Position numbers and translations under genes: made by a program. Under the pieces are notes generated by a model. That model was not told the DNA's origin. It worked only from the letters and a program-made list of their open reading frames with translations, and made no database searches. DNA of 64,000 bases from an uncultured Candidatus Saccharibacteria bacterium. GTDB taxonomy: Bacteria > Patescibacteriota > Minisyncoccia > Phycocordibacterales > Zambryskibacteraceae. Shown in pieces: positions 15,908 to 64,000 of the stretch (within the stretch, counting starts at the first letter, position 1; each line of letters opens with the position of its first letter). The stretch covers positions 168,290-232,289 of the forward strand of contig CAZSOL010000001.1 of assembly GCA_964608585.1 (NCBI GenBank). The letters run 5' to 3'.

Positions 15908-17617
15908 CTATTTCAAGTACTCTGGGGTGTTCTCCACCATCCACTCAAGAACCTGACGCATCACATATACTCCTCCAATAGTGTTTGTCGCTGGCCCCCT
16001 CTCCATAATGATCGCAAAAGCGTATCTCGGACTCTCATAAGGGAAGAACCCTACTATCCAAGAGTTGACGTTCTCCTTCCTTGAGCCAAGCTCTGCTGTA
16101 CCAGTCTTGGCTGCCACTCTCACCCCTTGAAGAGACAATCCTGAAGCGGTACCAGCTGTAACAGCTTGGCGCATGCCCTCGCGCACTATTTCGTAATACT
16201 CTTCGTTTATATCTATATCTCTGGCTACTCGTGAGGCCTCCGAGCGACTGTTGAGCAAAATAGTTGGGGTCAGAAGTTTACCACTACTTGCAATAGCAGA
16301 GATAGCTCTCGCCATAGAAAGAGGTGTCGTCTGTGTACCATATTGGCCTATAGAAGTGTGGTACGTGTTCCCCACACGCCAGTCAGGATCATCTGGGAAG
16401 TTCTCTGCCTTCCATGTCGGAGTAGCTATATAACTCTCTACCTCTCCTGGTAAGTCTATGCCAGTCATCTCAGCCATACCAAAGAGCGAAAAGTAGTCAT
16501 CAAGCTTGGTAATACCCAAACCTTTTTGGTTGCCAAATCCTCCTCCAACCTCATAAAAGTAGACATCGGATGAGACAGCTATAGCCTCTCTCATATCCAC
16601 AAACCCGTGCGCCTTCCAATCTCTAAAGACCGACGGGCTGTCTGGGTTATATGGATTTGGGAGAGTAAGAGCTCCAGTAGAGAAGATCTCCTTCTCCGGA
16701 GCTATCACACCCTCGTTTAAAGCCCCTATGGCCACGATGGGTTTAACAACAGACCCCGGAGTATAAAGTCCAGATATAGCTCTGTTAAGAAAAGGGGTGT
16801 ATCTGTTCTTTAGGAGTCTCTCTATCTCCACACTATCCTCACCTTCTGTTACAACACTTTGGTCATACTCTGGATAGCTTGTCATAGCCAAGACCTCTCC
16901 GGTCAAGACATCCATAATGACTCCCGCTCCTCCTGTAAAGCCTCTCTCAGAAGCTGTTCTACTAATAGCCTCATACAACTTCTCAGTAAGCAAGGCATCT
17001 AGAGACAAATACATATCCTTACCTTTTTTGGGCGACTCAACCAAGGACTCTGAAGTAATGTTCCCCAAAGCGTCCATCTCTATAAGCTTGCTACCATTTG
17101 TACCAGCAAGTATCTCATCATAAGATCTCTCAACTCCAGATTGGCCATGATACAACTCGTCATAATAACGATTAGATTTGTCCTTCTGAGGATATTTCAC
17201 ATAACCTACAACCGTTGATAAGCCTTGTATATCTGCATACTCTCGCTTGGCGAAATCTGCCTGCCCTTCCCGAGCTGAATTGAAAGCGAGAGGTACCCCA
17301 TTTCTATCGTAAATAACTCCCCTGTCAGAGAATATAATGAGTCGAGATAAACGGTTATCCTCGCTTATGTCCTTATAACTACTGCCGTTAACGATCTGCA
17401 AATCCAAGAGCTTCCAACCAAGAAAAATAAATATGAAAAGAATAAAAATCTTTGAGAAGAGGAAGGTCTTGTCGCCTATTGGCCTCTCTATTCTTCCTTC
17501 TAAGCGATCACGATCAAGCCCAGGAAGATTGGCTGAGTCTAAGAATATGTCTTCAGGGTTTATCTCCCTACTTGTATTACCAAACCTCTTCTTAAGTTTT
17601 CTTATAAATCTATACAT
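15908..17617 (-). CDS. mrdA: penicillin-binding protein 2 (elongasome transpeptidase)
   Basis: TM anchor, SVVKP (SxxK), SSD (SxN) and KTGTAE motifs; clustered with mreBCD. Confidence 0.85.
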   Translation of the reverse strand: MYRFIRKLKKRFGNTSREINPEDIFLDSANLPGLDRDRLEGRIERPIGDKTFLFSKIFILFIFIFLGWKLLDLQIVNGSSYKDISEDNRLSRLIIFSDRGVIYDRNGVPLAFNSAREGQADFAKREYADIQGLSTVVGYVKYPQKDKSNRYYDELYHGQSGVERSYDEILAGTNGSKLIEMDALGNITSESLVESPKKGKDMYLSLDALLTEKLYEAISRTASERGFTGGAGVIMDVLTGEVLAMTSYPEYDQSVVTEGEDSVEIERLLKNRYTPFLNRAISGLYTPGSVVKPIVAIGALNEGVIAPEKEIFSTGALTLPNPYNPDSPSVFRDWKAHGFVDMREAIAVSSDVYFYEVGGGFGNQKGLGITKLDDYFSLFGMAEMTGIDLPGEVESYIATPTWKAENFPDDPDWRVGNTYHTSIGQYGTQTTPLSMARAISAIASSGKLLTPTILLNSRSEASRVARDIDINEEYYEIVREGMRQAVTAGTASGLSLQGVRVAAKTGTAELGSRKENVNSWIVGFFPYESPRYAFAIIMERGPATNTIGGVYVMRQVLEWMVENTPEYLK

Positions 17618-19684: not shown

Positions 19685-20893
19685 TTAGTTCTTTAAGAGC
19701 CCTACCAAGGCCTTCTCATCCATCTCACTCCTCTCGCCAGTCTTTCTATCCTTAATCTCAAACTTACCTCCCTCCACACTCTTCTTGCCTACAATAATCT
19801 GAGTAGGAATACCCAAAAGATCTGCCTCAGCAAACTTCTCACCAGCACTTACCTCTCTATCATCAAGGAGCACCTCCACCCCATCTCTTACTAACTTATC
19901 ATAAAGTTCCTTAGCCTTCTCATCTTGTCCAATAGAGAGTATATGGGCACGGAATGGAGCAATGGATACAGGCCAGATTATGCCCTTATCGTCCGAAAGT
20001 ACTTCTGCTATCGTACCCATAACACGAGCTGGACCGATACCGTATGAACCCATAAAGACTGGCTTACTATCACCATTTTCATCCTTATAGGTTAGGTGTG
20101 GGTCAGAGAACTTGGTCCCAAGAGTAAAGATGTTGCCCACCTCTACTGCCTTGGCTTCCCTGCCTTCTCCACCAATTTCTTTGTTTACCGCTTCCTTCTT
20201 ATCCTCATCAGTTATATAGATAGTGTCTTCACCAGCTTCAGTAATAGTTTGAAACTCGTGCGAAAACTTGGAGAAGCTCCCCCCAGAAGCTGTGGTTAAG
20301 TACGTCCTATCGCCTAAGCCAACTCTTTCAAAGATTTTTATATATGACTTCTTGGCTCTCTCATAAAACTCTTGATGCTCTGCTTCATCTTTAGAAAACG
20401 AGTATAAGTCCTTCATCACGAACTCTCTCGTGCGCATGATACCGCTCTTGGCCCGAGCTTCGTTCCTAAACTTTGTTTGGAATTGGTAGACAGAAAAAGG
20501 TAGGTTCTTATACGAAGAGACAAATTGCTCAAGCATGTTTGAAATGGGTTCCTCGTGGGTAAAGGCGAGACCTACCTCTCCTCCATCCTTAAGATTTGTC
20601 TTAAACCAGTTGTCTACTACGTCGTCACTCCATCTACCGCTCCTCTCCCAGAGCTCCTTCCTTTGCAAAGAGGACATGAAGATCTCTTGTCCTCCTAAAG
20701 CATTCATCTCCTCACGGATGATCCCTATGATCTTATTTAACACCCGAAGGCCTAGAGGCAAGAAGTTGTAGACCCCTGCCATCTCCTTGTTGATATACCC
20801 TGCACGTATCAATAATTCAGCATTCTTGGAAACCTCATCCTTAGGGGCCTCCTTACGAGTCTTGGTAAAAAGATGGCTCTGTAACATGGCCAT
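19685..20893 (-). CDS. proS: proline--tRNA ligase, short form lacking INS editing insertion
   Basis: N-terminus MAMLQSHLFTKTRKEAPKDEVSKNAELLIRAGYI is a typical bacterial ProRS start. Class II core plus anticodon-binding domain in only 402 aa. Confidence 0.8.
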   Translation of the reverse strand: MAMLQSHLFTKTRKEAPKDEVSKNAELLIRAGYINKEMAGVYNFLPLGLRVLNKIIGIIREEMNALGGQEIFMSSLQRKELWERSGRWSDDVVDNWFKTNLKDGGEVGLAFTHEEPISNMLEQFVSSYKNLPFSVYQFQTKFRNEARAKSGIMRTREFVMKDLYSFSKDEAEHQEFYERAKKSYIKIFERVGLGDRTYLTTASGGSFSKFSHEFQTITEAGEDTIYITDEDKKEAVNKEIGGEGREAKAVEVGNIFTLGTKFSDPHLTYKDENGDSKPVFMGSYGIGPARVMGTIAEVLSDDKGIIWPVSIAPFRAHILSIGQDEKAKELYDKLVRDGVEVLLDDREVSAGEKFAEADLLGIPTQIIVGKKSVEGGKFEIKDRKTGERSEMDEKALVGLLKN

Positions 20894-29884: not shown

Positions 29885-30811
29885 TTAACCAGTTTGAGCC
29901 AACTTTTGCAAAGCCTTAGTAACGATGGGTAAGATGTCGTCGTAGAAGTTGAGGTCAAGGATGTCAGCTAGTCTAAACCACCTCACATCGTCCAAGCCCC
30001 CCTTCTCCTCCTTCTTCTCAAGAGTTAACTCTTGGTAAGGCGCCTCAGCGAGAAAGTAAGTAACCTGCTTCTTGATCTTGCCCTTCTCTGGATGGAAGGT
30101 GGTGTAGGCGTTCTCTCCCAACTTCTCCTTTATTTGTATAGGCACACCAAGCTCCTCCTCTGCTTCGCGAACAAGGCACTCCTCCTCCGTCTCCTTACCC
30201 TCAAGTTTGCCCTTAGTTAGGGTCCAGTGGCCGAAGATGTCATGGACCAGAGCAAGATACGTCTCTCCATTATCGTGTGCATAAACCACCGCGCCAGCCA
30301 ACCTCTCTAAAGGAAGCTCGGAGTCAGGGACGTTGCCGTACTTCTTCTTCGGCTTTGGTTGGTCGTCCTTACCCGGCTCACCCATTTCTCGGTACACAGC
30401 TCCAAGAACCCCGTTTACAAATCTCCCGCTAGTCTCACCACCGAAGGACTTTGCTAGCTCTATAGCTTCGTTAATAGCAACCTTAGGAGGCACCTCCTTC
30501 CTGTCAGCAAAGAGGAGCTCGGCTAGCCCCATACGCAAAATGTTTCTGTCTACTATAGATATCTTCTCTATCGGCCAGTCTGGGGCCGCCTTCTCTATGA
30601 TATTGTCTAGGTCTGTCTTCTTGTCTACTACGTTTTTGAGCAAATGCTCCATGAAGGGCTTATCTTTCGTCTCTGGAGCAAACTCCTTAGCAGTTCTATG
30701 AAAAATTTCTAAAACATCTATATCGCTCTTCGCCTTGCCAGAAGACAAGTCGAAGTCCCATTCGAAAAGCGTCTGCAATACAACGGAGCGCGAAAGATGT
30801 CTGTGTGACAT
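29885..30811 (-). CDS. nusB: NusB antitermination factor fused to a C-terminal NUDIX hydrolase domain
   Basis: Residues 1-140 are NusB-like (RSVVLQTLFEWDF...RFVNGVLGAV). Residues ~175-300 carry a Nudix box GKLEGKETEEECLVREAEEELGV. Confidence 0.7.
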   Translation of the reverse strand: MSHRHLSRSVVLQTLFEWDFDLSSGKAKSDIDVLEIFHRTAKEFAPETKDKPFMEHLLKNVVDKKTDLDNIIEKAAPDWPIEKISIVDRNILRMGLAELLFADRKEVPPKVAINEAIELAKSFGGETSGRFVNGVLGAVYREMGEPGKDDQPKPKKKYGNVPDSELPLERLAGAVVYAHDNGETYLALVHDIFGHWTLTKGKLEGKETEEECLVREAEEELGVPIQIKEKLGENAYTTFHPEKGKIKKQVTYFLAEAPYQELTLEKKEEKGGLDDVRWFRLADILDLNFYDDILPIVTKALQKLAQTG

Positions 30812-35401: not shown

Positions 35402-36640
35402 ATGTCAGACCAAAACACACAAGACCGAGATCACAAGAAGTTGGGTAAGGAGCTAGAGCTCTTCACCTTCTCCGACGCTATAGGCAAAGGTCTTCCCCTT
35501 TGGCTTCCTAAAGGGGCCACTGTTCGTCGTGAGCTTGAGCGCTTCATAGTAGATGAGGAGATAAAGCGAGGGTACCTACACGTTCGAACCCCAGATATCG
35601 CCAAACTTGACCTGTACAAGAAGTCTGGGCACTACCCAATGTATAAAGACAAAATGTATGCGCCAATTGTCATAGATGATGAAGAGTTTATGCTCCGACC
35701 AATGACCTGCCCTCACCACTTCGAGCTTTATCTCTCAAAGCCAAGAAGCTACCGAGACCTACCTATGCGTATAGCTGAGCTTGCTCAGCTCTACCGCTAT
35801 GAGCAATCAGGAGAGCTTATGGGGCTATTAAGAGTGAGAGCTTTCTGTCTCTCTGACGCTCATATTATTTGTAAGGATGAGGAGCAAGCGGTGGAAGAAA
35901 TCAGTAAAGCTTTGGACCTAATTGAATACGTAAACAGCGTTTTTAGTCTGGAAATGGGTAAAGATTACTGGTACGTACTTTCAATGGGCGACCGAGGTAA
36001 TACTGAGAAGTATTACAAAGATGATGCAGGTTGGGAGAAGGCGGAAGATCTATTACGCAATGCAATGAAGAAGCGTGGAGTGAAGTTTGAAGAAGTTAAG
36101 GATGATGCCGCCTTTTACGGACCTAAGATTGATGTGAATATGAAGAACGCAAACGGAAAGGAGGATACAGCATTTACTGTTCAGTATGATCTCTCTTCCC
36201 CTCACAGGTTTGATCTCAAATATACTGGAGAAGATGGTAAGGACCACTCAGCCTTTGTGGTACATCGCTCATCTATTGGTGCTGTAGAGCGTATCATGGC
36301 ATTCCTTATTGAGAAGTATGCTGGGGCCTTCCCTCTCTGGCTCTCACCTGTGCAAGTTAAGGTCTTGCCTATCGGTGAAGCGCATTTTGAGTACGCTAAG
36401 AAAGTCTTTGCAGAACTTAAGGAAGCTGGTATCCGCGCAGAACTCGATGAGTCCAATGAGAGCTTGGGCAAGAAGATAAGGAACGCCAAGACGGAAAAGG
36501 TCTTCTACACCCTAGTCATAGGCGACAAGGAGGTCGCAGACAACCAAGTGACTGTGGAAGGTCGCGAGGAAAAACTCGGCACAATGTCAGTCGACGAATT
36601 TATATCAAAAGTTAAGGAGGAAGTTAAACGTCGAGTGTAG
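35402..36640 (+). CDS. thrS: threonine--tRNA ligase, catalytic core plus anticodon-binding domain only (no TGS or editing domains)
   Basis: Begins RDHKKLGKELELFTF, equivalent to the catalytic-domain start of canonical ThrRS. Class II motifs and the C-terminal anticodon-binding domain are present. 412 aa versus ~640 canonical. Confidence 0.85.
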   Translation: MSDQNTQDRDHKKLGKELELFTFSDAIGKGLPLWLPKGATVRRELERFIVDEEIKRGYLHVRTPDIAKLDLYKKSGHYPMYKDKMYAPIVIDDEEFMLRPMTCPHHFELYLSKPRSYRDLPMRIAELAQLYRYEQSGELMGLLRVRAFCLSDAHIICKDEEQAVEEISKALDLIEYVNSVFSLEMGKDYWYVLSMGDRGNTEKYYKDDAGWEKAEDLLRNAMKKRGVKFEEVKDDAAFYGPKIDVNMKNANGKEDTAFTVQYDLSSPHRFDLKYTGEDGKDHSAFVVHRSSIGAVERIMAFLIEKYAGAFPLWLSPVQVKVLPIGEAHFEYAKKVFAELKEAGIRAELDESNESLGKKIRNAKTEKVFYTLVIGDKEVADNQVTVEGREEKLGTMSVDEFISKVKEEVKRRV

Positions 36641-38705
36641 CTTTCTTGGCGTTGGATTGGATGAAGGACTTCCTAGATGGAACGTCGGTGCCCATGAGGA
36701 TATCAAAGACCTTGTCGGCCTCTCGAGCATCCTCTACATTGACCTGCTTTAATATCCTCGCTTTAGGATCCATAGTAGTCTCCCAGAGCTCTTCGGCGTT
36801 CATCTCTCCGAGACCTTTGTAGCGTTGTAGAGATATCTTTGCTGTCTTCTTGCTCTTCACATCTTGCTCATCATCACCTGACTCTTCTTCCTTTATCTCC
36901 GCGTTCTCCTCTATCACGTCTTCTACATTGATGTCCTTGCCGACAATCTTGTTCTTCTCCTCGTCTGTATATGCATAGTGGACCTCCTTACCCTTCTTTA
37001 TCTTATAGAGTGGTGGTTGAGCAATGTAGACGAAGCCTCCATCTATCACAGGTCTGAAGTGTCTGTAGAGCAAAGTAAGAAGGAGTGTGCGGATGTGTGC
37101 ACCATCAACGTCGGCATCTGTGGCAAGGATTATTTTGTGGTAGCGAAGCTTCTCTATATCAAAGGTATCTCCTATTGCAGTACCCAAGGCAACCACAAGG
37201 TTCTTGATCTGCTCACTCGCGAGCATCCTGTCTAAGCGAGCTCTCTCAATGTTCAGGATCTTACCTCTTAGTGGGAGTATTGCTTGAGTCCTCCTGTCGC
37301 GACCCATCTTGGCCGTACCACCGGCAGAGTCTCCCTCTACGATAAATATCTCACTCTCCTCAGCAGACTTACTCTGGCAGTCAGCAAGCTTACCTGGGAG
37401 AGTCATACCCTCTAGAGCTCCCTTACGAAGTACCGAGTCCTTGGCGGCCTTGGCAGCCTTACGGGCCTTAAGAGCAAGGACAACCTTATTTATAATGGCC
37501 TTGGCGTCATCGGGGTTCTCCTCCAAGAAGGCGGAGAAGGCCTCACCAAAGACAGTAGTTACAGAAGCCTGTGCCTCCACGGACCCAAGCTTACCCTTAG
37601 TCTGACCCTCAAACTGTATCTCGCGAAGCTTGACCGAGATAACTGCAGTGAGCCCCTCAAGCACATCCTCTCCAGTGAAGTTGTCTTCACTCTCTTTGAC
37701 CAAGTTGTTCTTCTTCGCATAAGTGTTGAGTGTCCTTGTGAGAGCGGTCTTAAATCCTGTGACATGCGTACCTCCCTCGGCGTTATAGATATTGTTGGCA
37801 AACGGGAGGATACGCGAGGAGATGTCGTCTACGTACTGGAGAGCTATCTCCACCGTCTCATAGTCGTTGCCGTTGGGTGCTTTGTCTACGTAGAAGATAT
37901 TCTTGTGTACTGGCTTCTGGATCTCGTTCTCAAACTTCACTAGTGACATAAGTCCTCCCTCAAAGTAGAAGGCCATAGATGGCACGTCGAGCCCAAGATC
38001 ACGGATGTAGAAGGCGTCCTCTGACTCCACCATTGCCTCCTCTCGAGCGTCTATAACAGTAATACGCAAGCCCTTCACAAGGTAGGCCTGCTGGCGAAGG
38101 TGGTTCACCACTCTTTTGAAGTCAAAGTTGGTATCTGGGAAGATGGTTGGGTCAGGACGGAAGGTGATGATCGTTCCATTATTTTTGGTAGAGCCTACCT
38201 TCTTCACCGCGGCCTTACGCTTACCAGCGTTGTACTCCTGCATGTAGACACTACCGTCCTTGTGTACCTGTGCAATGGTGTGAGTTGAGAGAGCGTTCAC
38301 CACCGAGGCACCCACACCGTGGAGTCCTCCGGAGACCTTGTAACCGTCACCGCCGAACTTTCCTCCTGCGTGGAGAGTGGTCATGATGGTCTCAAGTGCT
38401 GAGACCTTCGTCTGCTTGTGTACATCAATAGGGATACCTCGACCGTTGTCTACCACTCTTATGTAATTACCAGGAAGAAGTGAGACCTCAATATCGTTGG
38501 CAAAGCCTCCCATCGCCTCGTCACGAGAGTTATCAAAGATCTCCCAAATGAGGTGGTGTAAACCGTCAGGGCCGGTTGTACCGATGTACATACCTGGTCT
38601 CTTTCTGACCGGATCGAGCCCCTCAAGAACGGTAATAGATTCGGCAGTGTAGTGATGCCCACTACCTTTTGTTTTAGGGTTATTTTTAGCCTTTTTTTCT
38701 GCCAT
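36624..38705 (-). CDS. gyrB: DNA gyrase subunit B
   Basis: GHKL ATPase N-terminal region, Toprim with the EGDSAGG motif and PLRGKILN. 693 aa, lacking the E. coli insert. The 3' end overlaps thrS by 17 nt, convergently. Confidence 0.88.
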   Translation of the reverse strand: MAEKKAKNNPKTKGSGHHYTAESITVLEGLDPVRKRPGMYIGTTGPDGLHHLIWEIFDNSRDEAMGGFANDIEVSLLPGNYIRVVDNGRGIPIDVHKQTKVSALETIMTTLHAGGKFGGDGYKVSGGLHGVGASVVNALSTHTIAQVHKDGSVYMQEYNAGKRKAAVKKVGSTKNNGTIITFRPDPTIFPDTNFDFKRVVNHLRQQAYLVKGLRITVIDAREEAMVESEDAFYIRDLGLDVPSMAFYFEGGLMSLVKFENEIQKPVHKNIFYVDKAPNGNDYETVEIALQYVDDISSRILPFANNIYNAEGGTHVTGFKTALTRTLNTYAKKNNLVKESEDNFTGEDVLEGLTAVISVKLREIQFEGQTKGKLGSVEAQASVTTVFGEAFSAFLEENPDDAKAIINKVVLALKARKAAKAAKDSVLRKGALEGMTLPGKLADCQSKSAEESEIFIVEGDSAGGTAKMGRDRRTQAILPLRGKILNIERARLDRMLASEQIKNLVVALGTAIGDTFDIEKLRYHKIILATDADVDGAHIRTLLLTLLYRHFRPVIDGGFVYIAQPPLYKIKKGKEVHYAYTDEEKNKIVGKDINVEDVIEENAEIKEEESGDDEQDVKSKKTAKISLQRYKGLGEMNAEELWETTMDPKARILKQVNVEDAREADKVFDILMGTDVPSRKSFIQSNAKKATLDV

Positions 38706-38729
38706 TGGTATACCTAATTATAGCAGATT

Positions 38730-39302
38730 TTATCCTATAAAGATAGCGTATTTACGCCAGTATTTGAGGAATTCCTCTCCTGATATCTCTACCCCTTCTT
38801 TTGGACTAATGTTGCTTGGATCGTGTATAAGGAAACCATTATCACTATGCCCCACAACCACAACCATATGTGAGTCAGAGACAGAACCAAATCCAGGTAA
38901 GAAAGATACAATTACTGGGACATTATTATCTAGAGACTTTTTTATTCTCTTTAAGCCCTCATCTCTTAAAGCATCACTCCAAATACTTGGAGTAGTCTCC
39001 CCTGTTTCAATATTTATAGTATCACTCCTAAATTCTTCCTTATATGCTGGCACACCATGGTTATGAGCGAGCCACACAAGAGCATCGTGCTTCCAACCAT
39101 TTTGAGGATTATACAAGCCACCACTCATCGCTAAGGCCTCTGTAAGCAGATCTGAGGCACTAGGCATGTCTACAGAATTATTTTTTCCATAAAAATCTAA
39201 GCACATCTTCAAACAAACAATCGCACAAGATCTCTCTCGCCAATCTTCTGGAACCGATGAATCACTTTGGGGAACAAATTTTACTAAAAGCTTTTTATTC
39301 AT
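38730..39302 (-). CDS. peptidase C39-like cysteine peptidase domain protein
   Basis: ERSCAIVCLKMCLDFYG resembles the C39 catalytic-Cys block, HMVVVVGH the His block and IHDP the Asp block. Confidence 0.5.
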   Translation of the reverse strand: MNKKLLVKFVPQSDSSVPEDWRERSCAIVCLKMCLDFYGKNNSVDMPSASDLLTEALAMSGGLYNPQNGWKHDALVWLAHNHGVPAYKEEFRSDTINIETGETTPSIWSDALRDEGLKRIKKSLDNNVPVIVSFLPGFGSVSDSHMVVVVGHSDNGFLIHDPSNISPKEGVEISGEEFLKYWRKYAIFIG

Positions 39303-39876
39303 GTTTAATCCAATTTATTAGACTTTCAGCACTGCGTAAATCCGGCCGGTCTTCTGGCACCTCAATAACATATCTCTCGTCTTCATTGAGGATAAAACGC
39401 TTATAACCCATAAACCCGGTTGGATAATATTTAGAATCAACAATCTTCTCTCTAACAACCTTACCGTAGCCCATACTTACACCACCGGCATGTATCATCT
39501 CTCCGTTGCCAATATACAAACCATTATGACCCATCTTATCTTCCGAGATATCTGTACGGTTACTCTTGAAGAAGACTATATCGCCCGGCTTAGCATCTAC
39601 TTCAGAGACAATCTCACCAGAACGATACTGGTCATCACAAATTCTTGGTATAGCTATACCAGCCTCCACGTGTAAATAAGCCGTAAGAGAAGAGCAGTCA
39701 AAAGAATTAGGACTATCACGCAAAACACTTGAACCAAACTTATACGGCACACCAATCAAGCTTTCAGCCAAGGAAACAACTCTTTCTCTGGGCTTCACTT
39801 TTCTCCAACTCAAACCACGACTATTCAGTTCTTCCTCGCTTACATCATTAACTGATAGGCCGACTCTGTAGATCAT
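39295..39876 (-). CDS. NlpC/P60 family cell-wall peptidase
   Basis: Catalytic Cys in FDCSSL and His in GHNGLYIGNGEMIHA. Overlaps the C39-like gene by 8 nt. Confidence 0.75.
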   Translation of the reverse strand: MIYRVGLSVNDVSEEELNSRGLSWRKVKPRERVVSLAESLIGVPYKFGSSVLRDSPNSFDCSSLTAYLHVEAGIAIPRICDDQYRSGEIVSEVDAKPGDIVFFKSNRTDISEDKMGHNGLYIGNGEMIHAGGVSMGYGKVVREKIVDSKYYPTGFMGYKRFILNEDERYVIEVPEDRPDLRSAESLINWIKHE

Positions 39877-41024
39877 GAGACTCTTATGGTTCCTTGGTAA
39901 TCCTTAACTGTCATCTCCTCAACCTTTTTGTGGAGCTCGTTCACCTCCTCGTTTGTCAAAGTCTTGTTTAAGTCTCTGTAGGTAATCCTCCAAGTGTAGC
40001 TCATCTTACCCTCACCGAACTTTTGCGCATTCTCGTACTTATCTATTAACGCCACCTCCTCCACGTTCTCCCCACCGATGTCGCGGATAGCATCAAAGTA
40101 GTCGTTCAACACGAAGCTCTCTTTATCCACGACGAAGGAGATGTCGCGTACCACAGGTGGAAACTTACTAACCTCCTTATACTTGTTGCCAAGGACAAGT
40201 TGCTTCTTCACCCTCTCATCCTCTGACCAAAGGAGTCTAATGTCTGGGAGCTCCATAGAGACGATAGCCAACCTCTCAAGCCCAAAGCCAAAGGCCCAAC
40301 CCGTCCACTTGGTACTATCAATTCCAAACTTCTCCAAAACACTTCCCTTCACCACCCCACTGCCTAATATCTCAACCCACTTACCATCCTTGTCTACTTC
40401 CATCTCAAGAGATGGATGAGTGTATGGGAAGGTATCTGGATTAAAGCGGGTAACGACATTCTCACCGAAGACCGCCTTAGCAATAGCAGACAGAACATTC
40501 TTTAGCTCTTCCTCCCCAATAGTCTCCTTTTCTTTTGGAGCTAAGTACCAACCATCAAGTTGATGGAAGACGTTCATATGGTTCCTGTCTATCTCGTCCT
40601 TCCTATATACCTTGCCATGAGAGAAGCACCCAACCGCTTCGCCTCTTGCCATCCTCTCCTTCACATCCTTCTCTTGCAGATAGTAATACCACATCACCGT
40701 GGTATGCGTACGCAAAATATTTTTGTCATCTACATAGTAAGTATCAGACTTACTCCTTGCTGGATGGTCAGCCGGGAAGTCGAAGAGATCAAAGCTGACA
40801 TCGGCTGGCACTATCTCAGGTGTCTCTATGACATCAAAATTTTTGAAATCATCTTGAGCAAGTATTCTCTTGACCATCTCACTCAATGGACTTCCATCAG
40901 TTCTTGATAGATCCTTCATAGCGAGATACCTCTTAATCCTGAACGCCTCAGAGTCTGTTCTGGACTCAAGGTATTTTAGTAACTTTTCCTGCTCATCTAG
41001 AGCTACTTTATAGGTTTTTTGCAT
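39873..41024 (-). CDS. pheS: phenylalanine--tRNA ligase alpha-type catalytic domain fused to a C-terminal FDX-ACB anticodon-binding domain (single-chain, mitochondrial-type architecture)
   Basis: FDFPADHPARSKSDTYY (motif 2 region) and GFGLERLAIV (motif 3). The C-terminal ~95 aa (ISFVVDKE...GEGKMSYTWRITYRDLNKTLTNEEVNEL) match the FDX-ACB domain normally found at the PheT C-terminus. No long N-terminal coiled coil. Confidence 0.75.
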   Translation of the reverse strand: MQKTYKVALDEQEKLLKYLESRTDSEAFRIKRYLAMKDLSRTDGSPLSEMVKRILAQDDFKNFDVIETPEIVPADVSFDLFDFPADHPARSKSDTYYVDDKNILRTHTTVMWYYYLQEKDVKERMARGEAVGCFSHGKVYRKDEIDRNHMNVFHQLDGWYLAPKEKETIGEEELKNVLSAIAKAVFGENVVTRFNPDTFPYTHPSLEMEVDKDGKWVEILGSGVVKGSVLEKFGIDSTKWTGWAFGFGLERLAIVSMELPDIRLLWSEDERVKKQLVLGNKYKEVSKFPPVVRDISFVVDKESFVLNDYFDAIRDIGGENVEEVALIDKYENAQKFGEGKMSYTWRITYRDLNKTLTNEEVNELHKKVEEMTVKDYQGTIRVS

Positions 41025-41089
41025 AAGTCTTTTGTGGCTTTTTGGCCTTTGGCATAAGCCGTATTATACGATATAATGCGAATGTTTCC

Positions 41090-42340
41090 ATGACTATCTA
41101 CGACATCATTATGTATGTCTGGCTCTTCGTCTCGCTCTTCTTCGAGGTCTTTTTGCTTATAACCTACTTTGAGATAAGAGAGGAGCTAAAGAGAGAGAGG
41201 GCTCTCTTAGACTCCGGTCCAAAGAGTTTCCCCTCGGTAACAGTTATCGTCCCTTGCTACAACGAAGAGAGCACTGTGATAAAAACAGTAGAGTCCCTCC
41301 TGTCTCTTGATTACCCCAAAGACAAGTTGCAGATACTTATTGTTAACGATGGGTCTACAGACAACACCTTAGACATCGTCTTAAGTCGGTTTAAGAACCA
41401 CGAGCAAATAAAGATCCACCATAAGGAAAACGGTGGCAAGCACTCTGCTCTCAACTTCGCCATAAGTCATGCAGAGACCGAGCTTATAAGCTGTCTAGAT
41501 GCAGATTCCTTTGTGGAGAAGGAGACTCTAAAGAGGATGATCCCCTTCTTTGAAAACAGAGAGACGATGGCCGTCATCCCTTCGGTAAAGATATGGGAGC
41601 CTAAGAGCATACTCCAACATATACAGAAGGTTGAGTATAGCTGGGGGATCTTCCTAAGACGCCTACTCTCCTCTCTCAATGCCCTTTATGTGACCCCAGG
41701 GCCCTTCTCAATCTTTAGGACCAAGGTCTTCAAAGAGCTTGGTGGTTACAAACACGCCCACCATACCGAAGATATGGAGATGGCAATGAGGATGCAGAAA
41801 AATGGATACAAGATTGTTAATTCTCACAGCGCCTTCGTCTACACTGTTGGTCCAGAAAAGCTCAAAGGCTTGTATAAACAAAGAGTCAGATGGACGTACG
41901 GTTTCCTCAATAACGTCATAGACTACAAAGATATGTTCTTCAACAAGAAGTTTGGCAACATTGGCCTACTGATCTTACCTGTAGCTACAGTCTCTGTCTT
42001 TGCCATTATCTATATGTCTATCATGGGAGTGTTAGAAGTGTTCAACAGGATTGGAGAAGAATATCTAAGGTACGAGGCTGTCGGCTTCACATACTCACTT
42101 CCAAGTTTTGGCTCTATAAACTGGTTTACCATAAACCTTGGAGCACTCTTCTTCATCTCTCTGACGATCCTCTCTCTAACCATGTTCATAATCTATCTAT
42201 CACTCAGGCTCTCTGATGGTAAGTTCAAGTTTACTCGCGGGATCCTCTACTACTTCCTCGTTTATATCTTTATTGTCCCTCTCTGGCTTACCAAGGCCAC
42301 TTATAGTACTATCTCGAGGCAAAGCATTACTTGGAGATGA
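41090..42340 (+). CDS. family 2 glycosyltransferase, processive (cellulose/chitin/PNAG-synthase-like)
   Basis: DGSTDNT, DAD and QRVRWTYG (QxxRW) motifs, with TM helices at both ends. Start chosen at ATG 41090; the track ORF starts at a TTG. Confidence 0.75.
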   Translation: MTIYDIIMYVWLFVSLFFEVFLLITYFEIREELKRERALLDSGPKSFPSVTVIVPCYNEESTVIKTVESLLSLDYPKDKLQILIVNDGSTDNTLDIVLSRFKNHEQIKIHHKENGGKHSALNFAISHAETELISCLDADSFVEKETLKRMIPFFENRETMAVIPSVKIWEPKSILQHIQKVEYSWGIFLRRLLSSLNALYVTPGPFSIFRTKVFKELGGYKHAHHTEDMEMAMRMQKNGYKIVNSHSAFVYTVGPEKLKGLYKQRVRWTYGFLNNVIDYKDMFFNKKFGNIGLLILPVATVSVFAIIYMSIMGVLEVFNRIGEEYLRYEAVGFTYSLPSFGSINWFTINLGALFFISLTILSLTMFIIYLSLRLSDGKFKFTRGILYYFLVYIFIVPLWLTKATYSTISRQSITWR

Positions 42341-61581: not shown

Positions 61582-62294
61582 ACTGCTAATACAATTATAG
61601 CAAGAATTGATAAAACATAGACCCTGTTGGGGAGAGCCTTACTTGAGACCACGTAATTACCTTCCATATCAACGGCTTTGACATAAACCTTTTTTATAAG
61701 GAGTTTATCTCCTATTTCATAAGGGCTTTGTGCTTCTTGCCATTCATTGTTGCTTGGTCTAAAGACAAGTGTCTCGGCGACCTCATATCTTGCTACTCCA
61801 CTCCCCTTATCTTGAGTAGCAAATGAGACAAACTTCTTACCAGCAAAGATGTCTGGGGAGCTACTAATGTATAGGTCAAACGACTCCGGAGCTATGAAAT
61901 CTTCCGAAACCTCCACACTCATCGCCTTAAGAGACGTCGGTACCTCTGTACCCTCACCGTCATTCCTAAGTGCAATTATTTTGCCGAAAGATATCTCGGA
62001 AGGAAGCACTCCTCCTTCTATGACAAAGAGCTCTCTCTTGCCGCTAAACCCGCCAGGGGTAATACCTGAGAAGCGAATAACTCCCGTTTCGGAGTCAAAG
62101 GTTGGGCTCTCTACCCAAATCAATACAGAAGAACCGCCTATAAGAATATCCCCTACATCACCACTCTCTACAAAGACTGACCCCTCAATGGCGTTTATAC
62201 TCTCTCCAAGGGTATCAACTTCGACAAGAACGTGCGTCGCCGAAACAAACATAGGGAGAGCAAACAAAATAGTTATAAGTAATTTCTTCATCAT
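61548..62294 (-). CDS. membrane-anchored surface protein with cohesin-like N-terminal domain
   Basis: Signal peptide, VEVDTLGESINAIEGSVFVESGDVGD...IRFSGITPGGFSG (cohesin-like), a second beta domain and a C-terminal TM anchor. ATGA overlap with the upstream gene. Confidence 0.45.
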   Translation of the reverse strand: MMKKLLITILFALPMFVSATHVLVEVDTLGESINAIEGSVFVESGDVGDILIGGSSVLIWVESPTFDSETGVIRFSGITPGGFSGKRELFVIEGGVLPSEISFGKIIALRNDGEGTEVPTSLKAMSVEVSEDFIAPESFDLYISSSPDIFAGKKFVSFATQDKGSGVARYEVAETLVFRPSNNEWQEAQSPYEIGDKLLIKKVYVKAVDMEGNYVVSSKALPNRVYVLSILAIIVLAVCTLLSRKYFR

Positions 62295-63598
62295 CCGGTC
62301 CAGTTAAAGGCTAGTATTGAGAAGTCCACAAGATCAACCTTACCATCTCCATTCAAGTCTACATTTAACGGAAGGTTGGACCTTTTATACCAATACGCTA
62401 CGACAGAGAAGTCTACTAGGTTAACCTTACAATCCTTGTTCACATCTCCTTTCCTGCTACAAGCTCCAAGCGTAGCTAAAACATTTTGCGTTCCCACCTT
62501 GAAGGCCACCGCTTGGCTAAACGAGCTTATCTCACCATCCTTAGCACTCTTAGACTTAGCAGTATGATCACCATACTCTACAAGTGAGGAGTCAAAGTTG
62601 TATAGGTAAGCTCCAGCTCCATCGGTGTTTATCTTAGCGAAGACAGGCTCATCGGAGTTAACTTGTATCGTCACCTCACTTTGGATAGCAGATTGACCAA
62701 AGATAGCTATGTTGTCCCCTCTTCTTACTTCCAACTTGTCCACAGCGATAGTTGGAGCCAAATAGACTCCACTCACATTTGTTACAGTCCCATTGGTTAC
62801 CCCTATGGGGAAGGTGAGTAAGCTTGATCTATTGCCTCTGCTATCCTCACTATATATAGAGAAGAAGTAGTTCCCCCCAGAGAGCCCACCGACATTAGCA
62901 CTGAAGTTGGCTGTTGCATCTGCTACAGTACTACCTACAACCTGAGCGTCCTTAAGTATTGTGACGACACTTCTGGGGTATGCTCTGCCAGAGAAGTTCA
63001 CCATAGCCGAGCCAAAAGAGTTACCCCCACTACTGCTTCCTCCCCCACCTCCACCTCCGCCTCCACCGCCACTTGGGGCTGATGTGGGTGTAGCACTAAC
63101 CTCAGTTGAAGTAGCCACGACATTCCCTTCTGCATCAAGGACTCTCACTACAAAGTAGTAAGGGGTCCCGGAAGTCAAGCCGGTCCTAGTAGAACTTGGA
63201 GTACTACCAACGTTCGTGTAAGAGTAACTACTCCCAGAAGTTGTGGACTGTCCGACCTCATAAGCTCCGACTGACCAACCCAAGACTCCATCAGCGGCTG
63301 TCCATGAGAGAGATACCTGACCACTCCCCGCTGTAGCTGATACAGCTGGCGTAGTAATGTATGGGAAGAAAAGAAATCCAGCAAAAACTTGGCTCAGGTT
63401 CCCCGCCGTGGTTGAGGTGCCAATACCTAACTCTGTTAAAGCACTACTAAGAGAATAGCTTGTGGAAGTAGAGTATCCTCCGGGCCCTATGGTCTGATCC
63501 AATATTTGAAAGTTAGTAGACGAAGAGTACTGAGCCAACGCCGGCCAAGCGAGGAAAACCAAACAAACCAAAATAATTTGTCTCAAAGGAAGCGCCAT
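62291..63598 (-). CDS. secreted FN3-domain protein with poly-Gly linker and C-terminal type I dockerin
   Basis: FN3 (VSLSWTAADG...GTPYYFVVRVLDAEGN), an 11-Gly linker, then two canonical dockerin Ca-binding segments DVNKDCKVNLVDFSVV and DLNGDGKVDLVDFSILA. Start set at MALPLRQIILVCLVFLAWPALA (signal); the track ORF begins 8 codons upstream. Confidence 0.65.
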   Translation of the reverse strand: MALPLRQIILVCLVFLAWPALAQYSSSTNFQILDQTIGPGGYSTSTSYSLSSALTELGIGTSTTAGNLSQVFAGFLFFPYITTPAVSATAGSGQVSLSWTAADGVLGWSVGAYEVGQSTTSGSSYSYTNVGSTPSSTRTGLTSGTPYYFVVRVLDAEGNVVATSTEVSATPTSAPSGGGGGGGGGGGSSSGGNSFGSAMVNFSGRAYPRSVVTILKDAQVVGSTVADATANFSANVGGLSGGNYFFSIYSEDSRGNRSSLLTFPIGVTNGTVTNVSGVYLAPTIAVDKLEVRRGDNIAIFGQSAIQSEVTIQVNSDEPVFAKINTDGAGAYLYNFDSSLVEYGDHTAKSKSAKDGEISSFSQAVAFKVGTQNVLATLGACSRKGDVNKDCKVNLVDFSVVAYWYKRSNLPLNVDLNGDGKVDLVDFSILAFNWTG

Positions 63599-64000
63599 GT
63601 TTGCATAATAGGCGCGAACCACTCACCAAAGCCCTTAAAGGTTGTTATCTCATAAAGATGCCCATTGTGGATAAACCAAACCTCTCTGGTCTCACCTAGA
63701 AAGTCGTCTTGACTGTTGAAGGTCACAGCAGGTATGCGCTTCTCCCCCAAAGTCGTTGGTCTTATGTTGTAACGAATGCCAGAAGGTATGTCTCGATAAA
63801 ACCTATCCTCAGTAATAACATCTTTGTCGTATGGCACAATAAATATCTGAAGACCTCTTAAGCTTTGCTCGTTCTCCTGCACGACCGTCACAGCTCCTCC
63901 TCCTTCATCATACTCGGTAATCTTGGCTTGGGGTGAGTGATAATAGGAGAAGCCGTAGCGCTCGTTCTCATACTTAATATAATCAGATGGAGGCTCTGTT
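63583..64000 (-). CDS. hypothetical protein, C-terminal part (gene starts beyond the right edge of the window)
   Basis: The frame is open from the window edge to the stop at 63583. The track ORF starts at an internal GTG, but upstream codons (..TEPPSDYIKYENERYGFSYYHSPQ..) continue without a stop. Confidence 0.4.
   Translation of the reverse strand, partial: TEPPSDYIKYENERYGFSYYHSPQAKITEYDEGGGAVTVVQENEQSLRGLQIFIVPYDKDVITEDRFYRDIPSGIRYNIRPTTLGEKRIPAVTFNSQDDFLGETREVWFIHNGHLYEITTFKGFGEWFAPIMQTWRFL

What the first reader, a model, noticed from the sequence alone, without database searches (positions are those of the whole stretch)
39873..41024. Single-chain, mitochondrial-type PheRS (alpha catalytic core fused to FDX-ACB)
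The only PheRS-like gene in the window encodes 383 aa. It has a class II PheS catalytic domain (FPADHPAR...DTYY, GFGLERLAIV) with no long N-terminal coiled coil. It is directly fused to a ~95-aa C-terminal ferredoxin-fold anticodon-binding (FDX-ACB) domain, which in bacteria normally sits at the C-terminus of the beta subunit PheT. This architecture is that of monomeric mitochondrial FARS2. If no pheT exists elsewhere, this organism aminoacylates tRNA-Phe with a minimal single-chain enzyme that lacks the beta-subunit editing site.
Basis: partly seen in the sequence, partly recalled or inferred. Interest (0 to 1): 0.65.

Follow-up and report, generated by a model that had tools for sequence, protein, structure and literature searches.

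The report
Single-chain mitochondria-like PheRS in a Parcubacterium
This ultra-small (CPR/Parcubacteria) bacterium encodes a one-chain phenylalanyl-tRNA synthetase built like the mitochondrial enzyme, with no proofreading module; hundreds of related species share it, and it is probably their only PheRS, though the rest of this genome could not be checked.

Summary
Window 39873-41024 (-) encodes a 383-aa protein with a PheS-type class II core (aa 48-275) fused to a complete FDX-ACB anticodon-binding domain (aa 286-381). It has no long N-terminal coiled coil and no beta-subunit or editing domains. A confident AlphaFold model superposes over its full length on human mitochondrial PheRS (3CMQ, TM 0.72).

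The organism is a Parcubacterium (Paceibacteria, CPR). At least 556 species-level genomes carry the gene. It is as conserved as GyrB and lies next to gyrB even in subgroups only ~50% identical, so it looks like an old, vertically inherited housekeeping gene.

It is not NCBI's "mystery ligase" SrmL, whose catalytic motifs are degenerate. It forms its own bacterial clade (92% bootstrap), just misses the pheS_mito cutoff, and has clade-specific features: a 10-13-residue insertion and invariant Trp112 where other PheRSs have a pocket Gln.

No pheS or pheT is in the window or in 86 related loci, but whole-genome absence could not be tested. Some Parcubacteria do keep canonical pheST, and the one fully tabulated bin of that kind lacks the fused gene. 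ThrRS and ProRS in the same window also lack editing domains.

This is a new bacterial variant of a known enzyme type, of moderate-to-high interest.

The parts
39873..41024 (-). Complete CDS of the fused single-chain PheRS (383 aa plus stop)
   Evidence: ORF listing; Pfam two-domain architecture; exact protein found in NCBI and Logan assemblies
40884..41024 (-). Short N-terminal helical region (aa 1-47), in place of the ~100-aa PheS coiled-coil domain
   Evidence: AF2 model has helices at aa 10-21 and 25-35; alignment with E. coli PheS and P0268 shows their long N-terminal domain is absent
40200..40883 (-). Class II PheS-type catalytic core (aa 48-275), carrying FPADHPAR, motif 2 GKVYRKDEIDRNHMNVFHQLDG, FPYTHPS and motif 3 GWAFGFGLERL
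   Evidence: PF01409 E 6.6e-55; R141, R251, F199, T202 and A244 are invariant in 87 of 87 family members
40632..40676 (-). Clade-specific insertion (about aa 117-131, QEKDVKERMARGEAV) between the HTT..W segment and motif 2
   Evidence: Present in the Parcubacterial group and in P0123, P0124, P0126 and P0129; absent from mitochondrial, giant-virus and canonical PheS sequences; modelled as a helix at aa 119-126
40689..40691 (-). Codon of Trp112, at the position of pocket Gln124 of human mtPheRS (Gln183 of T. thermophilus PheS)
   Evidence: Ungapped HMMER alignment to 3CMQ; alignments A2 and A4; W in 87 of 87 family members; role of Gln124 taken from PMC3275996
39882..40169 (-). C-terminal FDX-ACB (ferredoxin-fold anticodon-binding, B8-type) domain, aa 286-381
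   Evidence: PF03147 full-length match, E 4.7e-22; TIGR00472 positions 698-798; 68.5 bits to human mtPheRS against <=35.8 bits to PheT B8 domains
41063..41090 (-). Promoter-like site TGGAAA-16-TATAAT about 38 nt upstream of the ATG (a hint only)
   Evidence: Consensus scan, 10 of 12 matches; such sites are not enriched over shuffled sequence; sequence read directly
39295..39876 (-). Downstream NlpC/P60 gene whose ATG overlaps the PheRS stop (ATGA); likely co-transcribed
   Evidence: Sequence read; ORFs; Pfam annotation in L001
36624..38705 (-). gyrB, the conserved downstream neighbour of the fused PheRS throughout Paceibacteria
   Evidence: PheRS-gyrB adjacency seen in L003, L005, L006, L104 and L105

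Best explanation
The gene encodes a functional single-chain phenylalanyl-tRNA synthetase of the mitochondrial architectural type.

Proposed mechanism. The class II core activates Phe with ATP and transfers it to tRNA-Phe. The fused C-terminal FDX-ACB domain reads the GAA anticodon. By analogy with human mtPheRS, that domain swings from a closed position, docked on the catalytic domain, to an open tRNA-bound position.

Consequence. The protein has no B3/4 domain, so it cannot hydrolyse Tyr-tRNA-Phe or m-Tyr-tRNA-Phe in cis. Accuracy would then rest on the synthetic site alone. In this clade that site carries fixed changes: Trp112 for the pocket Gln, Asp157 for Glu, and usually Tyr201 for Phe.

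Role. It is most likely the organism's only PheRS, inherited vertically within Paceibacteria as part of a PheRS-gyrB housekeeping locus. It fits a wider stripping of editing domains from this genome's synthetases.

Shown: the architecture, the fold, motif conservation, the distribution, the synteny, and the strength of purifying selection. Inferred: monomeric state, Phe specificity, domain swing, sole-enzyme status, and any fidelity role of Trp112.
For: Architecture and fold; pLDDT 86, pTM 0.79, and 3CMQ at TM 0.72 over the full chain.

Catalytic competence. The motif 2 and motif 3 arginines and the Phe-size determinants (T202 and A244, equivalent to E. coli T251 and A294) are invariant in 87 of 87 sequences. 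HPAR, FHQxDG and GWAFGFGLER are intact, unlike in SrmL.

Housekeeping status.
- At least 556 GTDB species genomes carry the gene.
- Identity between genomes is 81/73/70%, against GyrB 84/74/54%, DnaE 66%, RpsB 72/55% and Tsf 53/46%.
- PheRS-gyrB adjacency is kept even in the ~50%-identical Staskawicz/Nealsonbacteria subgroup.
- The Parcubacterial clade is monophyletic in 185 of 200 bootstraps.

No competitor seen. There is no second PheS core, FDX-ACB, B3/4 or B5 in the window or in 86 related loci totalling 1.35 Mb.

Complementarity. The Paceibacterales bin PMX_810_sub has canonical pheT+pheS and exactly one PF01409 and one PF03147 in its full gene table, so it has no fused gene.

Genome-wide trend. 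ThrRS (412 aa, model positions 166-564 of 565 only) and ProRS (402 aa, INS skipped) in the same window also lack editing domains.
Against: The rest of the genome could not be searched, so a canonical pheST elsewhere is not excluded. The window is 64 kb of a contig of at least 238 kb.

Both enzyme types occur among genomes labelled Parcubacteria or Nealsonbacteria, so co-occurrence in some genomes is possible.

The protein misses the curated cutoffs of TIGR00469 (239.1 < 258.35) and TIGR00468 (164.3 < 237.45).

Three pocket positions differ from all characterised PheRSs (Q to W, E to D, F to Y), so unchanged Phe specificity is an inference. Model coordinates could not be inspected.

A related copy sits in a non-CPR context in an 'Oligoflexia' MAG, where it could be an accessory paralogue.

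There are no biochemical data for any bacterial member.
Confidence: 0.75

Rival explanations
1. Accessory paralogue. The genome keeps a normal heterotetrameric pheS/pheT elsewhere. On this reading the fused protein is a second PheS-related ligase with a specialised or unknown role, in the way NCBI's SrmL 'mystery ligase' is presumed to be, or a redundant PheRS.
For: The best NCBIfam hit by score is SrmL (256.6 bits). Canonical pheST does exist in some Parcubacteria. A related copy occurs in a non-CPR genomic context. Whole-genome absence of pheT was not shown.
Against: The SrmL cutoff (300) is not met. A true SrmL (P0267, 402 bits) has degenerate catalytic signatures (NISR, IHHMDM, HPY, GWALG) that the window protein does not share.

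Conservation equals GyrB and exceeds ribosomal and replication proteins. The gene is present in at least 556 species of organisms with very small genomes, and the housekeeping synteny is ancient.

The one fully tabulated canonical-pheST bin lacks the fused gene, which suggests the two forms replace each other rather than coexist.
Confidence: 0.13
2. Same architecture but altered amino-acid selectivity. The fixed Trp112, Asp157 and Tyr201 remodel the ring-binding pocket. The enzyme would then either be hyper-specific for Phe, compensating for the lack of editing, or accept a different aromatic substrate.
For: Trp replaces the Gln that hydrogen-bonds the meta-OH of m-Tyr in human mtPheRS (PMC3275996; mapping). 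W112 and D157 are invariant in 87 of 87 sequences. Tyr at the second aromatic position is the eukaryotic-cytosolic state.
Against: The residues that set para-position size (T202, A244) and the first aromatic residue (F199) are the standard PheRS ones. The FDX-ACB domain, and so the tRNA-Phe anticodon reader, is intact. An organism needs a PheRS and no other candidate was seen. The 'hyper-specific' half of this idea is compatible with the main explanation and does not compete with it.
Confidence: 0.07
3. Two-piece enzyme. The fused chain needs a separately encoded PheT-derived tRNA-binding module (a B2/tRNA_bind protein) acting in trans, so it would not be a truly single-chain PheRS.
For: In 8 distinct genomes of the 80 sampled, a conserved ~135-150-aa gene lies 22-176 nt upstream on the same strand (664 nt in L023). 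Its best match is the PheT model at positions 38-152 (84-115 bits).
Against: The window has no such gene, and none of the 26 members of the window's own sub-cluster has one adjacent. The B2 domain is dispensable for aminoacylation in E. coli PheRS and is already missing from many CPR PheT proteins (PMC5370408 and its reference 40). Human mtPheRS works without it.
Confidence: 0.05

Closest known systems
Mitochondrial monomeric PheRS (human FARS2, yeast MSF1; TIGR00469 pheS_mito; 'PheRS-M' in AARS Online)
   Same: Both have the same two-domain chain: a PheS core followed by FDX-ACB. Neither has a coiled coil, a beta subunit or an editing domain. The predicted fold matches closed-state 3CMQ over the full length (TM 0.72). 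The FDX-ACB domain is 45% identical to the human one, and FPxTHPS and GWAFGxGLERLA are shared.
   Different: This protein is bacterial (CPR) rather than organellar. It scores just below the curated cutoff (239.1 < 258.35). It forms a separate clade (92% bootstrap) with its own insertion (aa ~117-131) and fixed pocket changes: hmGln124 to Trp112, Glu159 to Asp157, Phe234 to Tyr201. It is shorter (383 aa) and has no presequence. Its catalytic core alone is no closer to FARS2 (130 bits) than to bacterial PheS (128 bits).
Canonical bacterial (alpha-beta)2 PheRS: PheS (TIGR00468) plus PheT (TIGR00472)
   Same: The catalytic core is homologous (about 32% identity to E. coli PheS) and keeps the same class II motifs and the same T251/A294-equivalent specificity residues. 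The C-terminal domain is homologous to PheT domain B8.
   Different: This protein has one chain instead of two. It lacks the PheS N-terminal coiled coil and PheT domains B1-B7, including the B3/4 editing site and the B5 and CLM domains. There is no adjacent pheT, no infC-rpmI-rplT linkage and no T-box or leader. The TIGR00468 cutoff is not met (164.3 < 237.45).
NCBIfam NF051887 'PheS-related mystery ligase SrmL'
   Same: Both have a PheS-like core plus FDX-ACB in a single chain of ~350-380 aa. SrmL is the top NCBIfam hit by score (256.6 bits).
   Different: The cutoff of 300 is not met. A true member (P0267, 402 bits) is only 30-33% identical and has degenerate active-site signatures (HPAR to NISR, FHQxDG to IHHMDM, FPY to HPY, GWAFG to GWALG). 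The window protein keeps the canonical ones. No publication on SrmL was found.
Giant-virus (Nucleocytoviricota) fused PheRS found in IMG/VR
   Same: These have the same fused architecture, are 341-407 aa long, and score 175-235 bits against the window protein.
   Different: They group with the eukaryote/mitochondrial-type sequences, retain the 'HTSAHQ' Gln, lack the Parcubacterial insertion, and come from AT-rich viral contigs.
Editing-deficient aaRSs of host-restricted bacteria and organelles (Mycoplasma PheRS editing-site decay; mitochondrial ThrRS and ProRS forms without editing domains)
   Same: All show loss of cis-proofreading in a small-genome, host-dependent organism. PheRS, ThrRS and ProRS in this window all lack editing domains. 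ProRS-M mostly lacks the editing domain (PMC10810186).
   Different: Here the PheRS editing function is lost through replacement or removal of the entire beta subunit, not through point mutations in B3/4. The Mycoplasma comparison rests on my own knowledge of the literature and was not retrieved here.

Membership tests
Mitochondrial-type monomeric PheRS (TIGR00469 / PheRS-M) | PheS-type class II catalytic core (PF01409) | tested here: met
   PF01409 at aa 48-275, E 6.6e-55
Mitochondrial-type monomeric PheRS (TIGR00469 / PheRS-M) | FDX-ACB anticodon-binding domain fused to the C-terminus of the same chain | tested here: met
   PF03147 at aa 286-381, profile positions 1-94 of 94, E 4.7e-22
Mitochondrial-type monomeric PheRS (TIGR00469 / PheRS-M) | No PheS N-terminal coiled coil and no beta-subunit domains (B1-B7, including B3/4 editing) | tested here: met
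   Only two Pfam domains are found; the N-terminus is 47 aa
Mitochondrial-type monomeric PheRS (TIGR00469 / PheRS-M) | Score at or above the curated TIGR00469 cutoff (258.35 bits) | tested here: not met
   239.1 bits. A 63%-identical family representative, P0121, does pass with 264.3 bits.
Mitochondrial-type monomeric PheRS (TIGR00469 / PheRS-M) | Whole-chain fold like solved mtPheRS | tested here: met
   AF2 model with pLDDT 86.2 and pTM 0.79; Foldseek finds 3CMQ at E 3.9e-33 and TM 0.72, and the open state 3TUP at TM 0.54. This compares a prediction with a solved structure, not two solved structures.
Mitochondrial-type monomeric PheRS (TIGR00469 / PheRS-M) | Phe-binding pocket residues as in characterised PheRSs | tested here: inconclusive
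   F199, T202, A244, R141 and R251 are conserved, but Gln124 is Trp112, Glu159 is Asp157 and Phe234 is Tyr201. Model coordinates could not be inspected.
Mitochondrial-type monomeric PheRS (TIGR00469 / PheRS-M) | Active as a monomer and charges tRNA-Phe with Phe | not testable with these tools
   Needs biochemistry
Mitochondrial-type monomeric PheRS (TIGR00469 / PheRS-M) | Acts as the sole PheRS of its translation system (no alpha/beta enzyme in the same compartment or genome) | not testable with these tools
   Only 64 kb of the genome is available. None was found in the window or in 86 related loci.
Canonical bacterial PheS (TIGR00468) | Score at or above the curated cutoff (237.45 bits), with the N-terminal Phe_tRNA-synt_N domain | tested here: not met
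   164.3 bits; no PF02912
Canonical bacterial PheS (TIGR00468) | Partner pheT gene (B3/4, B5, CLM, FDX-ACB), usually adjacent | tested here: not met
   There is no PheT-like ORF in the window. The flanking genes are a GT2 glycosyltransferase and NlpC/P60.
SrmL, PheS-related mystery ligase (NF051887) | Score at or above the curated cutoff (300 bits) | tested here: not met
   256.6 bits
SrmL, PheS-related mystery ligase (NF051887) | SrmL-type diverged active-site signatures (as seen in the true member P0267) | tested here: not met
   The window keeps HPAR, FHQLDG, FPYTHPS and GWAFGFGLER, where P0267 has NISR, IHHMDM, HPYTNEG and GWALGMGLDR

The most novel reading that the evidence does not exclude
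The fused enzyme is the only PheRS of a large part of the class Paceibacteria, and this bacterial clade is the closest prokaryotic relative of mitochondrial PheRS. On that reading the one-chain, editing-free PheRS was invented in bacteria and later reached eukaryotes and giant viruses by gene transfer, or else passed once from an early eukaryote into the CPR. It would not be a post-endosymbiotic eukaryotic novelty. In these bacteria fidelity would be maintained by a remodelled pocket (Trp112), and in one sub-branch tRNA binding would be assisted by a free-standing PheT-B2 module.
Probability: 0.25. Interest if true: 0.75.

Novelty: new variant of a known kind. Interest (0 to 1): 0.58.

Why it matters
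Textbook accounts, and the reviews read here (PMC3275996), describe three PheRS forms: the bacterial (alpha-beta)2 enzyme, the archaeal/eukaryotic (alpha-beta)2 enzyme, and a monomer confined to organelles. A monomer-type PheRS that serves as the housekeeping enzyme of hundreds of free-standing bacterial species would break that scheme.

If confirmed, it would provide three things:
- A natural bacterial system that makes all its proteins without PheRS proofreading against Tyr and m-Tyr. In this genome ThrRS and ProRS apparently lack proofreading as well.
- A prokaryotic sister group for tracing the origin of mitochondrial FARS2.
- A minimal 383-aa PheRS scaffold with a distinctive pocket (Trp112), of interest for engineering.

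There are also practical consequences. NCBI's current pipeline labels most of these proteins 'hypothetical protein' because they fall between curated cutoffs. Marker sets that expect pheT (TIGR00472) would also under-estimate the completeness of these genomes.

Tried and rejected
1. Whole-genome test for pheT. No tool gives access beyond +/-10 kb of a known protein. The exact protein is indexed only on a 36-kb Logan contig.

2. Supplementary gene tables.
- The Minisyncoccus archaeiphilus table is truncated and contains no PheRS row in the stored part.
- The PMC11188291 and PMC9530719 supplements contain no K01889 or K01890.
- Only PMX_810_sub was informative, and it carries canonical pheST.

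The best canonical representative, P0268, comes from an unclassified MAG whose protein composition does not look CPR-like. An IMG/VR scan with canonical PheS returned E. coli-like, high-GC and giant-virus loci, none of them CPR. I therefore left the third large protein search unused, because no available query would rank Parcubacterial PheT in its top 120.

4. Literature. Nine searches or reads found no report of a monomeric PheRS in CPR or other bacteria. The only related note is that many CPR PheT proteins lack the B2 domain. Subscription-only papers are not covered.

5. 'It is an SrmL.' Rejected on both score and active-site signatures.

6. 'The ~350-aa proteins that pass pheS_mito show wide bacterial spread.' Rejected: they are AT-rich and match fused genes on giant-virus contigs.

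7. 'The Oligoflexia relative shows a non-CPR origin.' Its nearest relatives are again Parcubacteria, so it looks like a transfer out of the CPR, or possibly a binning error, although its context is non-CPR.

8. FDX-ACB-only phylogeny. The domain carries too little signal (0 of 200 bootstraps for Parcubacterial monophyly). A first bootstrap run timed out.

9. Rfam. There is no T-box or leader near the gene. Promoter-like sites are not enriched over shuffled sequence.
Full report
**1. The observation**

The ORF listing shows an ATG-initiated ORF of 383 aa at 39873..41024 on the minus strand, exactly as reported. Pfam finds two domains and nothing else:
- tRNA-synt_2d (the PheS class II core) at aa 48-275, E 6.6e-55.
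- A complete FDX-ACB domain at aa 286-381, covering profile positions 1-94 of 94, E 4.7e-22.

Only ~47 residues precede the core, against ~105 in E. coli PheS. The start is supported by 24 homologues that begin at the same place.

A phmmer --max search of every six-frame ORF of the window, using the two halves of the protein as probes, finds no second PheS core or FDX-ACB. Domain scans of about 40 further window ORFs find no PheT domains.

**2. What the protein looks like**

Among solved structures the best matches are human mitochondrial PheRS entries (3CMQ, 5MGU and others, E ~5e-60). Bacterial PheS chains follow at E 1e-33 to 1e-36, and PheT chains match only the last ~100 residues.

An AlphaFold2 model built from a 25-sequence family alignment is confident (mean pLDDT 86.2, pTM 0.79). 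Foldseek places it on closed-state human mtPheRS over the whole chain (3CMQ, E 3.9e-33, TM 0.72). The tRNA-bound open state (3TUP) gives TM 0.54, and canonical PheS covers only about half the model.

Taken separately, the two domains behave differently:
- The catalytic core is equidistant from FARS2 (130 bits) and bacterial PheS (128 bits).
- The FDX-ACB domain is clearly closer to the mitochondrial domain (68.5 bits, 45% identity) than to any PheT B8 domain (<=35.8 bits; 28% identity to E. coli).

This favours shared ancestry of the fused forms over independent fusions.

**3. Whose gene it is, and how common**

Source names of close homologues identify the organism as Parcubacteria / Paceibacteria / Minisyncoccia, within the CPR. 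The window itself is a typical CPR housekeeping region.

- The top 120 database relatives are all ~380 aa, all have both domains, and are 68-87% identical.
Labels include Zambryski-, Yanofsky-, Nomura- and Harrisonbacteria.
- A second, ~50%-identical subgroup covers Wolfe-, Staskawicz-, Nealson- and Portnoybacteria.
- In the library clustered at 50% identity the whole family collapses to about one representative, and only 250 clusters anywhere reach E <= 1e-30.

**4. Is it a housekeeping enzyme or an accessory paralogue?**

Direct proof, meaning no pheS/pheT elsewhere in this genome, was out of reach. No tool reads more than +/-10 kb around a known protein. The indirect evidence is consistent:

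(a) Conservation. Between the window and three relatives the fused PheRS is 81/73/70% identical. GyrB is 84/74/54%, the class IIa synthetase 78%, PrfA 77/69%, RpsB 72/55%, DnaE 66% and Tsf 53/46%.

(b) Synteny. The gene lies immediately upstream of gyrB, or separated from it by one to two small genes, in all relatives examined. That includes the divergent Staskawicz- and Nealsonbacteria subgroup, where only 4-10 nt separate the two genes. This points to vertical inheritance from an early Paceibacterial ancestor.

(c) Catalytic residues. The motif 2 and motif 3 arginines, F199, and the size-determining T202 and A244 (E. coli T251 and A294) are invariant in 87 of 87 sequences.

(d) Complementarity. 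Published gene tables show that the Paceibacterales bin PMX_810_sub has an adjacent canonical pheT (B3/4, CLM, B5, FDX-ACB) and pheS. The untruncated table contains exactly one PF01409 and one PF03147, so that bin has no fused gene.

(e) No competitor nearby. None of 86 related loci (1.35 Mb) contains a second PheS core, FDX-ACB, B3/4 or B5.

Against this, both enzyme types occur in genomes labelled Nealsonbacteria or Parcubacteria, so coexistence in some genomes cannot be excluded. I put the sole-PheRS reading at roughly 0.8, conditional on the protein being an active PheRS.

**5. Relation to curated families**

The protein falls between curated models:
- SrmL ('PheS-related mystery ligase', NF051887): 256.6 bits, cutoff 300.
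- pheS_mito (TIGR00469): 239.1 bits, cutoff 258.35.
- pheS (TIGR00468): 164.3 bits, cutoff 237.45.

This explains why newer NCBI annotations call these proteins 'hypothetical'.

I located a true SrmL (P0267, 402 bits). It is only about 30% identical, and its active-site signatures are degenerate: HPAR to NISR, FHQxDG to IHHMDM, FPY to HPY, GWAFG to GWALG. The window protein keeps all the canonical ones. It is therefore not SrmL.

The AT-rich ~350-aa proteins that pass the pheS_mito cutoff match fused genes on giant-virus contigs in IMG/VR. They are probably viral or eukaryotic rather than bacterial.

A neighbour-joining tree of 200 core columns, rooted on three canonical PheS sequences, gives these supports:
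- Parcubacterial fused clade: 185 of 200 bootstraps.
- Separation of the fused forms from canonical PheS: 200 of 200.
- Branching among the eukaryote, giant-virus and SrmL lineages: unresolved (105 of 200).

The Parcubacterial clade is not nested inside the eukaryotic sequences. This is a rough distance tree with few outgroups, so the direction of any transfer remains open.

**6. Clade-specific features**

Using the residue numbering of PMC3275996 and the ungapped HMMER alignment, the substitutions relative to human mtPheRS are:

| hmPheRS residue | Role or equivalent | Window residue | Conservation in the family |
|---|---|---|---|
| Gln124 | Tth Gln183; hydrogen-bonds the meta-OH of m-Tyr | Trp112 | 87/87 |
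| Glu159 | Tth Glu220 | Asp157 | 87/87 |
| Phe234 | second pocket aromatic | Tyr201 | 81/87 (Phe in 6) |

Tyr at the Phe234 position is the eukaryotic-cytosolic state.

A 10-13-residue insertion (aa ~117-131) precedes motif 2. It is shared only with the nearest relatives P0123, P0124, P0126 and P0129.

One possibility is that these changes tighten discrimination against Tyr and m-Tyr to compensate for the missing editing site. That is a hypothesis only, because the model coordinates could not be inspected.

**7. Mechanism proposed**

Shown: a one-chain PheS core plus FDX-ACB, an mtPheRS-like closed fold, intact class II motifs, and no editing domain.

Inferred from the human enzyme (PMC3275996; 3CMQ against 3TUP):
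- The protein acts as a monomer.
- The FDX-ACB domain swings away from the catalytic domain to admit tRNA-Phe and read the GAA anticodon.
- Phe is activated and transferred without post-transfer proofreading.

**8. Local gene organisation**

- A promoter-like TGGAAA-16-TATAAT lies about 38 nt upstream of the ATG. Such sites are not enriched over shuffled sequence, so this is only a hint.
- The PheRS stop overlaps the ATG of the downstream NlpC/P60 gene (ATGA). A C39-like peptidase gene and gyrB follow on the same strand.
- No T-box or leader RNA is detected.

**9. Things noticed along the way**

- The window's ThrRS (412 aa) matches only model positions 166-564 of 565. Its ProRS (402 aa) is matched in two pieces that skip the INS insertion. 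Both show only core plus anticodon-binding domains in Pfam. All three synthetases in this window that normally carry a cis-editing domain therefore lack one.
- In 8 distinct genomes of the 80 sampled, a conserved ~135-150-aa gene lies just upstream of the fused PheRS on the same strand. Its best match is PheT model positions 38-152, the B2/tRNA_bind OB-fold. The window and its sub-cluster have none.

**10. Novelty and verdict**

Nine literature queries or reads in the held library found no description of a monomeric, mitochondrial-type PheRS in CPR or other bacteria. The nearest remark is that many CPR PheT proteins lack domain B2. The architecture is visible in databases, for example as IMG's 'PheRS alpha chain' labels and NCBI's SrmL model for a different clade, so it is not wholly unseen. 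As a characterised enzyme class in bacteria, though, it appears undescribed.

I class it as a new (bacterial, clade-specific) variant of a known kind. The conditional claim that it is the sole, editing-less PheRS is likely but unproven.

Noticed in passing
window 35402-36640 (+): ThrRS of only 412 aa. It matches TIGR00418 positions 166-564 of 565 (506 bits) and has only tRNA-synt_2b plus HGTP_anticodon in Pfam, so the N-terminal TGS and N2 editing domains are absent. It starts 9 nt after dnaE, so no separate N-terminal ORF is present. The same 413-aa form occurs in relative L003.
   Followed up: partly
window 19685-20893 (-): Bacterial-type ProRS of only 402 aa (TIGR00409, 390 bits). It is matched in two stretches that skip the INS editing insertion, and Pfam shows no tRNA_edit/YbaK domain. 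A 403-aa equivalent is present in Nealsonbacteria locus L105. Together with PheRS and ThrRS, all three synthetases here that would normally carry a cis-editing domain lack one.
   Followed up: partly
L006:9382-9897, L023:688-1104, L030:8335-8778, L048:9411-9899, L053:9390-9821, L056:9511-9939, L057:3522-3956, L079:9508-9975 (all + strand): In 8 distinct genomes of 80 sampled, a conserved ~135-150-aa gene (MNFFKKLF... followed by an OB-fold with KHPNADRLR...CGAFNF...AKIRG.ES.GMICAA.ELG) lies 22-176 nt upstream of the fused PheRS (664 nt in L023). Its best match is the PheT model at positions 38-152, the B2/tRNA_bind domain (84-115 bits), ahead of YtpR and TapR. It may be a trans-acting tRNA-binding partner or a surviving piece of PheT. 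It is absent from the window and from the window's sub-cluster.
   Followed up: partly
L090-L103 (IMG/VR contigs, e.g. L092 on a 1.47-Mb contig; L095 and L098 named GVMAG): Fourteen AT-rich (25-42% GC) giant-virus-type contigs encode fused PheS-core plus FDX-ACB proteins of 341-407 aa, scoring 175-235 bits against the window protein. This probably explains the ~350-aa metagenome proteins that pass the pheS_mito cutoff.
   Followed up: partly
L003, L005, L006, L104:10001-13091, L105:10001-13067; window 36624-41024: The fused PheRS gene is followed by gyrB throughout Paceibacteria, directly (4-10 nt apart) in the divergent Staskawicz/Nealsonbacteria subgroup. In the window, NlpC/P60 and C39-like peptidase genes have been inserted between the two.
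   Followed up: yes
L106:10001-11245 (NCBI GCA_019694465.1, JAIBBV010000034.1): A 414-aa member labelled 'Oligoflexia bacterium' sits in a non-CPR-looking context (M20 peptidase, GCS2, enolase-superfamily genes, beta-lactamase, FrhB) with no gyrB. Its nearest relatives are nevertheless Parcubacterial. This is either a transfer out of the CPR or a binning artefact.
   Followed up: partly
P0267 (JGI metagenome, 15-kb contig): A true member of NCBI's 'PheS-related mystery ligase SrmL' has the same fused architecture but degenerate PheRS signatures (NISR, IHHMDM, HPY, GWALG). Its organism and gene context were not determined, and no paper mentioning SrmL was found.
   Followed up: partly
L013, L015, L017, L023, L027 and about 25 further loci: Many GTDB representative MAGs titled 'uncultured Candidatus Saccharibacteria bacterium' (co-assembly bins) carry the Parcubacteria-type fused PheRS at 63-80% identity with the same synteny. 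The record titles look like taxonomic mislabels.
   Followed up: no
window 29885-30811 (-): A 308-aa protein combining NusB and NUDIX domains, according to the precomputed Pfam hits for the same gene in L001 and L003. This is an unusual fusion, conserved in the relative.
   Followed up: no
window 62291-63622 (-): A 443-aa protein with a C-terminal dockerin type I domain (E 4e-7) and no other recognised domain. This is unexpected in an ultra-small bacterium and may be a surface or attachment protein.
   Followed up: no
window 9879-11630 (-) and 15908-17617 (-): Two PBP2-type transpeptidases lie in the window together with MraW, a Mur ligase, MreB and MreC. The organism therefore has a full peptidoglycan and rod-shape toolkit despite its reduced genome.
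   Followed up: no
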